From Clostridium sp. CAG:508 (lineage in GTDB: Bacteria > Bacillota > Clostridia > TANB77 > CAG-508), in NCBI GenBank assembly GCA_000435755.1, contig FR889081.1, forward strand, positions 24,466 to 82,547: 58,082 nucleotides of DNA, given 5' to 3'. Below, piece after piece: positions 42,451-43,863 of this stretch. The notes under the pieces were generated by a model. The model was not told where the DNA came from. It saw nothing but the letters and a program-made list of their open reading frames with translations, and made no database searches. How positions within the stretch are numbered: position 1 is the first letter of the stretch; every line of letters starts with the position of its first letter. Made by a program: the position numbers and the translations under genes.

Positions 42451-42478
42451 TGTAATATTTTTGTAATGTTTCTGTAAT
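42451..42478 (+). promoter_or_regulatory. Triple TGTAAT direct repeat (box B)
   Basis: Plus strand TGTAAT-ATTTT-TGTAAT-GTTTC-TGTAAT: three perfect hexamers at 11-bp phasing. Lies between the pilin-3 stop codon (42480) and its terminator, ~46 nt upstream of the candidate internal -35. Confidence 0.55.
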
Positions 42479-42479
42479 A

Positions 42480-42857
42480 TTATCCTGTGATTCCTTGTGC
42501 TAATCCTACTACAACTTTTGTAATTGCAGATGCACCAAAGATTAATATTGCACCAACTAGGTATGGAATCATTGTCTTTTTGTATTCTGCTTTTTCTGAA
42601 GCACTACCCATCATGTATTTAATACCTAAAACTAATAGTATAATAACAGCTACTACTACACCTACTGTTGTAATAATACCAATTAATTGATTTCCTATTT
42701 TTGTTACATCATTTTGTGCATTACTTGTAGTTCCTTTTAGGCCTCCTGCTATATTGGCTGCATCAATACCACCATTAGCACTAACCATAGTAGTTAATGT
42801 CATAGAAATTACTGCAATTAATAATAGAACACTTGCTAACTTAATTGTTCTTTTCAT
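42480..42857 (-). CDS. VirB2/TrbC-like pilin-type small membrane protein, paralog 3
   Basis: Signal peptide (..TMVSA|NGG), then two hydrophobic helices separated by GSASEKAEYKKTMIPY. Same architecture as the two upstream paralogs. Confidence 0.55.
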   Translation of the reverse strand: MKRTIKLASVLLLIAVISMTLTTMVSANGGIDAANIAGGLKGTTSNAQNDVTKIGNQLIGIITTVGVVVAVIILLVLGIKYMMGSASEKAEYKKTMIPYLVGAILIFGASAITKVVVGLAQGITG

Positions 42858-42927
42858 AGTTTATCCTCCTTCTTATTTTTTTATTGTATATAAATGTTTC
42901 ATTTATGAAACAATTTTAAAATCAAAT

Positions 42928-43296
42928 TTATCTTAAAATAGTTATTACTAACTTCCAAATTCCAAACGCTCCAAAGATAACTACGCATCCAATAACAAAT
43001 GGAATTAAAGAGTCTTTTACTTTTGCTTTTTGTTCTACACTACCTGTTATAAATTGTATTCCTAATACAGATCCAACAATTACAGCTATTACCGTTCCTA
43101 GTATGAGTAGTACATTATATATTATATCTGATAAATTTTTTATTTTATCTCCTGCTATCATATCAGATGATGATCCATTAGTTATAAATCCGTCTGCTCC
43201 CTGAATAATATTAGATATAGTTGTAGCTTGTACAATATGTGTAGAACAAATCATTAATATAAAAATTATTAAAATAAAAAATATTTTTCTTTTCAT
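42928..43296 (-). CDS. VirB2/TrbC-like pilin-type small membrane protein, paralog 2
   Basis: Signal peptide (..HIVQA|TT), with two helices flanking GSVEQKAKVKDSLIPF. Confidence 0.55.
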   Translation of the reverse strand: MKRKIFFILIIFILMICSTHIVQATTISNIIQGADGFITNGSSSDMIAGDKIKNLSDIIYNVLLILGTVIAVIVGSVLGIQFITGSVEQKAKVKDSLIPFVIGCVVIFGAFGIWKLVITILR

Positions 43297-43346
43297 AATT
43301 CGTTCTCCTTTTTATTATACTATAATTATTATTATGTTGCAATACA

Positions 43347-43727
43347 TTATTTTATTGCATCTTGTGTAAGTTTTGCAATCAATCCAACAGCTGTAGATGC
43401 TGCTAGTAAAAGCACTACCCCAATTATATATGGTATCATACTTTTTTTGTACTCAGCTTTTTCCTCCACGCTTCCAATCATATATTTAATTCCTAATACA
43501 GTTAATGTAATAGCAGATATAACTATTCCTATTACAGTAATTGTTCCTAAAATGGGATTTACCTTATTCACTATCTTATCTGAATCTGTAGAAGAAATTC
43601 CTCCTGGTTTATAGTTTCCAGGATTATCTATAGGATTTCCTGTTGCAATACTATATGTTGGTATAGCAAATAATATTAATATTAAAAATACTATTGCTAT
43701 TATCACTAATTTATTATTTTTTATCAT
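43347..43727 (-). CDS. VirB2/TrbC-like pilin-type small membrane protein, paralog 1
   Basis: Start reassigned to ATG 43727 (AGGAGA RBS). The track start 43787 lies inside the promoter. Signal peptide (..YSIA|TGN), with two helices flanking GSVEEKAEYKKSMIPY. Confidence 0.55.
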   Translation of the reverse strand: MIKNNKLVIIAIVFLILILFAIPTYSIATGNPIDNPGNYKPGGISSTDSDKIVNKVNPILGTITVIGIVISAITLTVLGIKYMIGSVEEKAEYKKSMIPYIIGVVLLLAASTAVGLIAKLTQDAIK

Positions 43728-43758
43728 ATTTTTCTCCTGTAAACGTACAATTTTATAT

Positions 43759-43787
43759 ATTATAACTGATTTTTGCACATTTTTCAA
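43759..43787 (-). promoter_or_regulatory. Strong sigma-A promoter of the T4SS-like cluster
   Basis: Minus strand: TTGAAA (43787-43782), 17 nt, TATAAT (43764-43759). Confidence 0.65.
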
Positions 43788-43835
43788 GTACTAATATAGC
43801 ATATATTTCTATTTTTGGCATTATTTTAATACAAA

Positions 43836-43863
43836 TGTAACGAAAATGTAATGTTTTTGTAAT
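43836..43863 (+). promoter_or_regulatory. Triple TGTAAY direct repeat (box C)
   Basis: Plus strand TGTAAC-GAAAA-TGTAAT-GTTTT-TGTAAT. 48 nt upstream of the -35 at 43782-43787. Hexamers 2-3 and their spacer are nearly identical to box B. Confidence 0.55.

What the first reader, a model, noticed from the sequence alone, without database searches (positions are those of the whole stretch)
42451..43863. Two nearly identical triple TGTAAT repeats (boxes B and C) at matching distances from the two promoters of the T4SS-like cluster
Box C (43836-43863) reads TGTAAC-GAAAA-TGTAAT-GTTTT-TGTAAT. Box B (42451-42478) reads TGTAAT-ATTTT-TGTAAT-GTTTC-TGTAAT. They are on the same strand and match the WalR-type consensus at all six hexamers, with hexamers 2-3 plus spacer almost identical. 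Box C lies 48 nt upstream of the main -35. Box B lies ~46 nt upstream of a candidate internal promoter (TG-n-TATAAT) ahead of the prgI-like gene, squeezed between the pilin-3 stop codon and its terminator. The same geometry used twice argues for function rather than chance. Together with box A, it links the secretion-like apparatus and the thioester adhesin in one putative regulon, possibly that of the OmpR-family regulator at 9221-10018. WalR regulons classically include cell-wall hydrolases, and this operon encodes one.
Basis: partly seen in the sequence, partly recalled or inferred. Interest (0 to 1): 0.65.

Follow-up and report, generated by a model that had tools for sequence, protein, structure and literature searches.

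The report
WalR-type boxes upstream of T4SS promoters
Two arrays of 11-bp-spaced TGTAAT repeats sit at a fixed helical distance upstream of the pilin and machinery promoters of a chromosomal type-IV-secretion-like gene cluster in an uncultured gut Clostridia lineage, are conserved across about 75 related species, and are most likely binding sites for the cell's WalR-like response regulator.

Summary
Boxes B (42451-42478) and C (43836-43863) read as stated. Each has a fourth, weaker hexamer (TTTAAT at 42440 and 43825). About 0.01 triple arrays are expected in the window; three are found, all intergenic. In 80 related species-level genomes the box before prgI is present in essentially every readable locus. 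Its hexamers are nearly invariant and its spacers vary. Its distance to the -10 element is 57-59 nt or 46-49 nt, one helical turn apart. Box C is conserved only in the closer clade. Across 2.26 Mb of related DNA, 88 of 90 TGTAAY-N5-TGTAAY sites are intergenic, mostly before prgI or pilin genes. The regulator at 9221-10018 scores best as YycF/WalR. Its recognition helix almost matches solved WalR/VicR domains and is invariant among orthologues. Best reading: tandem dimers of this WalR-like regulator control both promoters, probably as an activator. They also bind box A before the thioester adhesin, which is conserved in five species. Binding, regulator identity and sign of control are inferred, not shown. 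This is a new member of a known kind (WalR-type sites), with an unusual target.

The parts
43825..43863 (+). Box C array: TTTAAT-N5-TGTAAC-N5-TGTAAT-N5-TGTAAT. It reads ATTACA..ATTAAA in the direction of the genes. The proximal hexamer ends 60 nt upstream of the pil1 -10.
   Evidence: conserved in the closer clade
42440..42478 (+). Box B array: TTTAAT-N5-TGTAAT-N5-TGTAAT-N5-TGTAAT, between the pilin-3 stop codon and the terminator. The proximal hexamer ends 58 nt upstream of the prgI -10.
   Evidence: conserved in all 77 loci whose upstream region was readable
43759..43787 (-). Pilin-operon promoter: TTGAAA - 17 nt - TATAAT (11 of 12 consensus positions).
   Evidence: conserved in related loci
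42376..42405 (-). prgI/machinery promoter: GTTACA - 18 nt - TG-extended TATAAT.
   Evidence: conserved in related loci
42410..42442 (-). Intrinsic terminator of the pilin operon (AAAAAGTGCA-loop-TGCACTTTTT plus T run). It lies between box B and the prgI promoter.
   Evidence: -17.5 kcal/mol, z -5.2; G-C to A-T compensatory changes in stems across species
43873..43923 (-). Hairpin after the spo0E-like gene, immediately upstream of box C. Probably a terminator.
   Evidence: 18-nt perfect arms
43347..43727 (-). pil1, VirB2/TrbC-like pilin (ATG at 43727).
42928..43296 (-). pil2, VirB2/TrbC-like pilin.
42480..42857 (-). pil3, VirB2/TrbC-like pilin.
41980..42327 (-). PrgI (VirB3-like), first gene after box B and its promoter.
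38822..40828 (-). VirB4-like ATPase, used as the anchor for related loci.
32512..33522 (-). Lysozyme + NlpC/P60 cell-wall hydrolase inside the operon.
9221..10018 (-). WalR/YycF-like OmpR-family response regulator, the candidate binder.
7745..9193 (-). WalK-like histidine kinase (2 TM with a short loop, HAMP, PAS, HisKA, HATPase). It has no extracellular sensor domain.
27950..27977 (-). Box A: TGTTAC-N5-TGTAAT-N5-TGTAAT in the direction of the gene. It overlaps a TTGAAA-N17-TATAAT promoter-like site, 165 nt upstream of the thioester-domain adhesin gene.
   Evidence: conserved in L062, L161, L163, L164
10104..10153 (-). Degenerate 11-nt-phased array ATTACA/ATTTCA/ATTTCA/GTGACA/ATTGAA just upstream of the walR-like promoter (TTGTAC - 17 nt - TG-extended TATAAA).
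52211..52227 (-). Perfect WalR-consensus dimer TGTAAT-AAAAT-TGTAAT, 269 nt upstream of nrdD.

Best explanation
Boxes B and C are each an array of four hexamers spaced 11 bp apart (ATTACA-N5-ATTACA-N5-RTTACA/ATTACA-N5-ATTAAA in the direction of transcription). I propose that each array binds two head-to-tail dimers of the phosphorylated WalR-like OmpR/PhoB-family regulator encoded at 9221-10018. The arrays lie on one face of the helix. If transcription starts about 7 nt after each -10, they span roughly -71 to -109 from the inferred start. From there the regulator would act on RNA polymerase at two promoters, most likely as an upstream (class-I-like) activator. One is the pilin promoter (43759-43787). 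The other is the prgI/VirB4 machinery promoter (42376-42405). This would tie the type-IV-secretion-like organelle to the cell-wall status read by the WalK-like kinase. That makes sense because the operon carries its own peptidoglycan hydrolase and DD-carboxypeptidase. The same regulator would bind box A, which overlaps a promoter before the thioester adhesin. Shown: the repeats, their non-chance nature, conservation, helical phasing, and the family and conserved recognition helix of the regulator. Inferred: physical binding, that this regulator is the binder, and the sign of control.
For: 1. Non-chance. Three triple arrays are seen against 0.011 expected, and 7 of 9 consensus dimers lie in the 8% of the window that is intergenic.
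2. Footprinting. In 75 distinct sequences of the region before prgI, the three promoter-proximal hexamers are nearly invariant (66-75 of 75 at each position). The spacers carry little information.
3. Phasing. The distance from the last hexamer to the -10 is 57-59 nt in 52 loci and 46-49 nt in 25 loci, one helical turn apart. The -10 to ATG distance ranges from 37 to 199 nt. The position of the terminator relative to the box changes between species, so the constraint acts on DNA and is tied to the promoter.
4. Distribution. All 58 strict arrays of three or more hexamers in about 2.3 Mb of related loci are intergenic. Of the flanking genes within 400 nt, 37 are prgI homologues and 11 are first-pilin homologues. 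For TGTAAY dimers, 88 of 90 are intergenic.
5. Regulator. Its best NCBIfam model is YycF at 329 bits, against 243 for MtrA. Its DNA-binding domain scores 116-118 bits to solved VicR/WalR/YycF domains, against 89 for the next. Its recognition helix is RTVDVTVRRIREKIE, against RTVDVTVRRLREKIE in WalR. The core of that helix (RTVDVT.RRIR) is unchanged in orthologues that are 66-98% identical overall.
6. Motif detail. The base after each hexamer is usually A (50-64 of 75). This matches the refined VicR consensus TGTWAHA-N4-TGTWAHA (PMC4168254).
7. Regulon. In 9 of 55 distinct walR-orthologue promoters a strict dimer abuts the -35, against 0.2 expected from shuffles. Box A is conserved before adhesin homologues that are only 37-52% identical. 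Other genes with the motif encode secreted or sortase-anchored proteins.
8. Precedent. In B. subtilis, WalR sites upstream of the -35 go with activation and sites overlapping the promoter go with repression (PMC4168254 discussion).
Against: There are no binding or expression data. The core promoters already look strong (TTGAAA-17-TATAAT, and a TG-extended TATAAT), so an activator is not obviously needed. Box C is missing in most distant species, whose pilin promoters look equally good. The arrays sit further upstream than most described OmpR/PhoB-family activator sites, which usually abut the -35, and they have 3-4 hexamers rather than WalR's usual 2. The regulator scores just under the curated YycF cut-off (329 against 340). 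The kinase scores far under the WalK cut-off (385 against 725) and lacks an extracellular domain. No walHIJ genes follow it. I could not see the rest of the genome, so other OmpR-family regulators with similar specificity cannot be excluded. In this species the walR-like promoter carries only a degenerate array. No site precedes the amidase gene at 18744.
Confidence: 0.55

Rival explanations
1. The same WalR-like regulator binds the arrays but acts negatively or architecturally. It could repress, or loop the DNA between boxes C and B (1,385 bp apart) to shut down or balance pilin against machinery expression.
For: Both core promoters are near consensus and should fire without help. Box A overlaps a promoter-like TTGAAA-N17-TATAAT, the geometry linked to WalR repression (PMC4168254). 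VicR/WalR is known both to activate and to repress. Two same-orientation arrays flank the pilin operon.
Against: The arrays lie 34-37 nt upstream of the -35 and cannot occlude polymerase. Strict conservation of helical phase relative to the -10, at 58 or 47 nt, is what a polymerase-contacting activator would predict. Most distant species have box B but no box C, so looping cannot be the general mechanism.
Confidence: 0.15
2. The arrays are bound by a different DNA-binding protein that recognises direct repeats with an 11-bp period. Candidates are another OmpR/PhoB-family regulator of the PhoP/ResD type encoded elsewhere in the genome, or an uncharacterised factor of the cluster.
For: Direct-repeat arrays with 10-11 bp spacing are generic for the OmpR/PhoB family. 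From my own knowledge, B. subtilis PhoP uses four or more TT(A/T/C)ACA hexamers with 11-bp periodicity, and ATTACA matches that at 5 of 6 positions. Arrays of 3-4 hexamers are more PhoP-like than WalR-like. Only 58 kb of the genome is visible. Several cluster proteins have no recognisable domain.
Against: All hexamers fit the WalR consensus 6 of 6. The first base in the gene orientation is A or G, not the T that PhoP needs. The A at position 7 matches VicR. The only OmpR-family regulator in view is WalR-like, with an invariant recognition helix. In some species its orthologues' own promoters carry the same motif. Pfam finds no DNA-binding domain in the cluster proteins.
Confidence: 0.2
3. The repeats are not protein-binding sites. 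They would be intrinsically curved or UP-like AT-rich DNA, or an RNA element in the pilin 3' UTR.
For: The spacers are A- or T-tracts phased at 11 bp, which can bend DNA. Box B lies upstream of the terminator, so it is transcribed as part of the pilin mRNA.
Against: Conservation is in the hexamers (including an almost invariant C), not in the A/T-tract spacers. Box C and the distant-species versions of box B lie downstream of a terminator, so they are not in an mRNA. No Rfam family matches. The same hexamer array occurs in both orientations before unrelated genes.
Confidence: 0.04

Closest known systems
WalR / YycF / VicR binding sites (TGTWAH-N5-TGTWAH) of Bacillota
   Same: The hexamer sequence, 5-nt spacer, direct-repeat arrangement and A at position 7 all match. 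Sites occur on either strand, in intergenic DNA near promoters, before cell-surface and wall-related genes. A WalR-like regulator with the same recognition helix is encoded nearby (PMC9210968, PMC4168254).
   Different: These are arrays of 3-4 hexamers rather than one dimer site. They sit about 70-110 nt upstream of the inferred start. The target is a T4SS-like pilin and machinery cluster, for which I found no WalR precedent in the library. The kinase partner lacks the extracellular domain, and no walHIJ genes are present.
B. subtilis PhoP boxes and E. coli OmpR F1-F3/C1-C3 tandem sites (from my own knowledge, not tested here)
   Same: Several tandem direct repeats with 10-11 bp periodicity are bound by head-to-tail dimers of an OmpR/PhoB-family regulator. 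Upstream sites load cooperatively and reach to about -100.
   Different: In those systems the proximal site abuts or replaces the -35. Here a 23-37 nt gap (partly a terminator hairpin and T run) separates the array from the -35. The hexamer sequence fits WalR better than PhoP.
Relaxase-less T4SS with tandem VirB2-like pilin arrays in Patescibacteria (PMC12102498)
   Same: This concerns the regulated cluster, not the boxes. It has tandem divergent VirB2/TrbC-like pilins, PrgI/VirB3 and VirB4. No relaxase or coupling protein was detected. It is vertically conserved in a reduced-genome lineage.
   Different: The host is a monoderm Clostridia lineage, and the cluster includes a lysozyme/NlpC-P60 hydrolase. 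Homology of the VirB4 proteins to the Patescibacteria clade was not tested.

Membership tests
WalR/VicR/YycF operator | At least two TGTWAH hexamers as direct repeats separated by 5 nt | tested here: met
   Boxes B and C each hold three perfect hexamers plus a fourth, TTTAAT.
WalR/VicR/YycF operator | A at the 7th position of each repeat (refined S. mutans VicR consensus TGTWAHA-N4-TGTWAHA) | tested here: met
   Across 75 species the base after the hexamer is A in 50-64 of 75 sequences. In the window itself it is A in 3 of 6 hexamers. Consensus from PMC4168254.
WalR/VicR/YycF operator | Located in promoter regions and conserved in orthologous promoters | tested here: met
   All strict arrays are intergenic. 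Box B is present in all 77 readable loci with fixed phasing to the -10.
WalR/VicR/YycF operator | Physical binding by WalR (EMSA, footprint, ChIP) | not testable with these tools
   Requires purified protein or cells of an uncultured lineage.
WalR/VicR/YycF operator | Expression of the downstream genes changes when WalRK activity changes | not testable with these tools
   No expression data are available.
WalRK two-component system (the candidate regulator pair 7745-10018) | The regulator passes the curated YycF equivalog model | tested here: not met
   It scores 329 bits against a cut-off of 340. YycF is still the best model by 86 bits. Marginal failure.
WalRK two-component system (the candidate regulator pair 7745-10018) | The recognition helix and wing of the DNA-binding domain match WalR | tested here: met
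   The closest solved domains are VicR, WalR and YycF. The helix is RTVDVTVRRIREKIE against RTVDVTVRRLREKIE. Its core is invariant in orthologues.
WalRK two-component system (the candidate regulator pair 7745-10018) | The kinase has WalK architecture: extracellular sensor domain, HAMP, PAS, HisKA, HATPase | tested here: not met
   HAMP, PAS, HisKA and HATPase are present. The loop between the two TM segments is only about 25 residues. The match covers WalK model positions 171-594, at 385 bits against a cut-off of 725. From memory, this resembles the short streptococcal VicK type.
WalRK two-component system (the candidate regulator pair 7745-10018) | Operon includes walH/walI/walJ-type accessory genes | tested here: not met
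   The genes downstream are a signal peptidase, holB and a PSP1-domain gene.
WalRK two-component system (the candidate regulator pair 7745-10018) | Essential for viability | not testable with these tools
   The lineage is uncultured.
Sigma-70/SigA promoter with upstream activator site | -35 and -10 hexamers with 16-18 nt spacing downstream of the array, and a conserved helical phase between array and -10 | tested here: met
   One search gives 11/12 and 10/12 matches, the second with TG. Searches give 57-59 or 46-49 nt. One search gives 60 nt for box C in the close clade. Transcription starts are not mapped.
Intrinsic terminator (hairpin between box B and the prgI promoter) | GC-containing stem-loop followed by a T run, stable relative to shuffles | tested here: met
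   One search finds 11 pairs plus a T run. One search gives -17.5 kcal/mol and z -5.2. Compensatory stem changes occur in related loci.

The most novel reading that the evidence does not exclude
In a large, uncultured, reduced-genome gut Clostridia lineage, the cell-wall homeostasis system WalRK may have become the master switch of a vertically inherited T4SS-like organelle. That organelle lacks a relaxase and a coupling protein, has tandem VirB2-like pilins, and comes with a partner thioester adhesin. The relatives include Clostridium sp. CAG:780 and CAG:575; from memory this is probably GTDB order TANB77, which I did not test. On this reading the apparatus is a core cell-envelope structure, comparable to the T4SS of epibiotic Patescibacteria, rather than a conjugation machine. 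Its expression would be read out from peptidoglycan status through four-hexamer WalR arrays acting from about -70 to -110.
Probability: 0.35. Interest if true: 0.7.

Novelty: new member of a known kind. Interest (0 to 1): 0.5.

Why it matters
WalRK is the conserved and often essential cell-wall homeostasis system of Bacillota. Its known targets are mainly wall hydrolases and surface proteins. A conserved, phased WalR-type array before both promoters of a T4SS-like pilus cluster, and before its neighbouring adhesin, would add a whole secretion or pilus organelle to that regulon. It would also give a first regulatory handle on an abundant gut lineage that cannot yet be grown. The boxes are short, exact and conserved. 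They can therefore be tested directly with recombinant regulator and synthetic DNA, or with reporters in a surrogate host, without cultivating the organism. The motif can also be used to map the rest of the regulon in the many available genomes.

Tried and rejected
- A megablast of 36000-48000 against plasmids found nothing. The flanks are housekeeping genes, so a plasmid or mobile-element origin and an oriT reading were dropped.
- No Rfam family matches the region. The position of the box relative to terminators changes between species, so an RNA-element reading was rejected.
- Duplication of the boxes along with the paralogous pilin genes was considered. The flanks of B and C are unrelated beyond the 41-nt block, and the boxes are maintained independently across species.
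- The TANB77 pilin paper (PMC11680825) describes a different cluster, a Tad/CpaF-type pilus. It says nothing about these boxes.
- Autoregulation of walR was tested. It is only partly supported: strict dimers occur in 9 of 55 distinct orthologous promoters, and this species has only a degenerate array.
- Around the walR loci almost no other triple arrays were found.
- No site precedes the amidase gene at 18744.
- Conservation of the nrdD-upstream dimer could not be tested, because related loci did not reach it.
- A first Markov simulation for chance expectation timed out. It was replaced by an analytic estimate.
- A library search for WalR/VicR control of T4SS or pilins found no precedent.
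Full report
**Observation.**
- Box B (42451-42478) reads TGTAAT-ATTTT-TGTAAT-GTTTC-TGTAAT. Box C (43836-43863) reads TGTAAC-GAAAA-TGTAAT-GTTTT-TGTAAT.
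- Both are on the + strand, while all genes of the cluster are on the - strand. In the direction of transcription they therefore read ATTACA-N5-ATTACA-N5-RTTACA.
- Each array continues with a fourth, weaker hexamer, TTTAAT, 11 nt further towards the promoter (42440-42445 and 43825-43830).
- The repeat finder aligns two 41-nt blocks in register at 78% identity.
- Hexamer frequencies predict 0.011 triple arrays in the window and 0.002 in its 4.7 kb of intergenic DNA. Three are present.
- Seven of the nine matches to TGTWAH-N5-TGTWAH lie in the 8% of the window that is intergenic, at four places: box A, box B, box C and a dimer upstream of nrdD.

**Local anatomy.**
- The genes 43347-43727, 42928-43296 and 42480-42857 encode three VirB2/TrbC-like pilins.
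- 41980-42327 encodes PrgI (VirB3-like) and 38822-40828 a VirB4-like ATPase.
- 32512-33522 encodes a lysozyme + NlpC/P60 hydrolase and 28421-29725 a DD-carboxypeptidase.
- Pfam detects no coupling protein and no relaxase in the cluster.
- The flanks are housekeeping genes: holB, prs, nrdDG and tRNAs. There is no plasmid match.
- The consensus scan finds TTGAAA-17-TATAAT at 43787-43759 and GTTACA-18-TATAAT with a TG extension at 42405-42376. It finds one terminator, at 42442-42417. That hairpin folds at -17.5 kcal/mol with z = -5.2.
- Box B therefore lies between the pilin-3 stop codon and the pilin-operon terminator. Box C lies just after the hairpin that ends the spo0E-like gene.
- From the proximal hexamer to the -10 there are 58 nt (B) and 60 nt (C).

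**Comparative evidence.**
- The VirB4-like protein has thousands of close homologues.
- A scan of one genome per species returned 577 relatives. I kept 80 loci from uncultured Clostridia MAGs. They include Clostridium sp. CAG:780 and CAG:575 and complete chromosomes of 1.57-1.70 Mb.
- The gene order M16 peptidases, spo0E-like, pilin array, prgI, 418-aa protein, VirB4 is conserved in them.
- In the intergenic region before prgI, essentially every readable locus carries the array.
- In 75 distinct sequences the three promoter-proximal hexamers are nearly invariant, at 66-75 of 75 per position. The fourth is weaker, and the spacers carry little information.
- The distance from the array to the -10 is 57-59 nt in 52 loci and 46-49 nt in 25 loci. 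That is one helical turn apart.
- By contrast, the -10 to ATG distance ranges from 37 to 199 nt.
- In the shorter class the hairpin between box and promoter is missing, or a terminator lies upstream of the box. The constraint is therefore on DNA and is tied to the promoter, not to the mRNA.
- Box C is conserved with a 60-nt geometry only in the closer clade. It is absent from most distant species.
- All 58 strict arrays of three or more hexamers in the related loci are intergenic. Of the flanking genes within 400 nt, 37 are prgI homologues and 11 are first-pilin homologues.
- Of 90 TGTAAY-N5-TGTAAY dimers in 2.26 Mb, 88 lie in the 15% that is intergenic.

**Who binds.**
- The regulator at 9221-10018 has a receiver domain and a Trans_reg_C domain.
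- Its best NCBIfam model is the YycF (WalR) equivalog at 329 bits, just under the cut-off of 340. The next model, MtrA, scores 243 bits.
- Its DNA-binding domain is closest to the solved domains of E. faecalis VicR, S. aureus WalR and B. subtilis YycF (116-118 bits; the next hit scores 89).
- Its recognition helix is RTVDVTVRRIREKIE, against RTVDVTVRRLREKIE in those proteins.
- The core of that helix is unchanged in 80 metagenomic orthologues that are 66-98% identical overall.
- The adjacent kinase is best matched by WalK, but only over HAMP-PAS-HisKA-HATPase. It has two membrane segments with a loop of about 25 residues and no extracellular domain. No walHIJ genes follow it. 'WalR-like' is therefore the accurate label.
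- The published WalR consensus is TGTWAH-N5-TGTWAH (PMC9210968). For S. mutans VicR it was refined to TGTWAHA-N4-TGTWAHA (PMC4168254). The cross-species consensus here also has A after the hexamer.

**Regulon hints.**
- In 9 of 55 distinct walR-orthologue promoters a strict dimer abuts the -35, against 0.2 expected from shuffles.
- This species and its 85%-identity relatives carry only a degenerate phased array there.
- Box A (27950-27977) overlaps a TTGAAA-N17-TATAAT promoter-like site upstream of the thioester-domain adhesin.
- The same arrangement recurs before adhesin homologues of 37-52% identity in L161, L163 and L164, and also in L062. The link between adhesin and secretion cluster is therefore conserved.
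- Other genes with the motif upstream encode a sortase-anchored Cys-rich protein, a dockerin-like secreted protein and an unknown 475-aa protein.

**Mechanism.**
- The best reading is that two head-to-tail dimers of the WalR-like regulator occupy each array on one face of the helix. They would control the pilin and machinery promoters together.
- Position upstream of the -35 and the strict helical phasing favour activation. This fits the B. subtilis rule quoted in PMC4168254. For box A, which overlaps a promoter, the same rule favours repression.
- Against activation, both core promoters look strong, and box C is dispensable in distant species.
- A conserved block between box C and its -35 is scored as a second promoter-like site: ATGCCA-17-TATATT with TG at 43821-43793. 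This leaves open that box C acts on a promoter it abuts.
- Binding, the identity of the binder and the sign of control are all inferences.

**Comparison and novelty.**
- The boxes meet every sequence-level criterion of WalR/VicR operators.
- They differ in having 3-4 hexamers, in sitting about 70-110 nt upstream of the inferred start, and in their target.
- I found no report of WalR/VicR control of a T4SS or pilin operon in the library.
- The TANB77 pilin paper concerns a different, Tad-type cluster.
- I file the finding as a new member of a known kind. The regulated cluster itself is unusual and resembles the relaxase-less T4SS with VirB2-like pilin arrays described for Patescibacteria (PMC12102498).

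Noticed in passing
window 28421-43787 (- strand); L001-L080: The T4SS-like cluster sits at one fixed chromosomal locus in at least 577 species-level genomes. It has tandem VirB2-like pilins, PrgI and VirB4 but no detectable coupling protein or relaxase. This is the architecture reported for Patescibacteria T4SS. That paper says VirB2-like pilins are absent from monoderm MPF-FATA systems, yet here they are in Clostridia.
   Followed up: partly
L058, L059, L061, L068, L073, L078: prgI promoter spacer: A perfect DnaA-box-like TTATCCACA lies between the -35 and -10 of the prgI promoter in one subclade.
   Followed up: no
window 43793-43821: A conserved block ATATG(C/T)TA(T/A)AT lies between box C and the -35 of the pilin promoter. 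It is scored as a TG-extended promoter-like site and may be a second promoter that abuts box C.
   Followed up: partly
window 52211-52227 (-): A perfect WalR-consensus dimer TGTAAT-AAAAT-TGTAAT lies 269 nt upstream of the anaerobic ribonucleotide reductase gene nrdD. Its conservation could not be checked.
   Followed up: no
window 28158-28295: The 138-nt spacer between tRNA-Gly and tRNA-Cys begins with GGCACCTTAGCCAAGC, a near copy of the 5' end of tRNA-Cys. Neither ARAGORN nor Rfam calls a gene there. It may be a decayed tRNA copy.
   Followed up: partly
L156 ~2920; L116 ~1666; L069 13578-13616: Further TGTAAY arrays precede a sortase-anchored (FPKTG) Cys-rich 953-aa protein, a secreted dockerin-like protein and a 475-aa coiled-coil protein. 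The motif therefore marks other surface or secreted proteins in related genomes.
   Followed up: partly
window 10521-18626 (-): A 2701-aa protein carries GH94 catalytic and supersandwich domains plus a glucoamylase domain (cyclic beta-1,2-glucan synthase-like). It lies just upstream of the walR-like operon.
   Followed up: no
window 42889-42918: A palindrome TGTTTCAT-AA-ATGAAACA lies between pil2 and pil3. It may be a terminator or an operator.
   Followed up: no
window 10069-10098; L081-L160: The walR-like gene has a highly conserved promoter (CTTGTA - 17 nt - TG-extended TATAAA) and a conserved GTG start across orthologues that are 66-98% identical.
   Followed up: partly
window 40758-42014 (-): The 418-aa protein between prgI and VirB4 weakly matches the N-terminal part of a mycoplasma ICE VirB4 model (NF045975). 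VirB4 may be split into two genes here.
   Followed up: no
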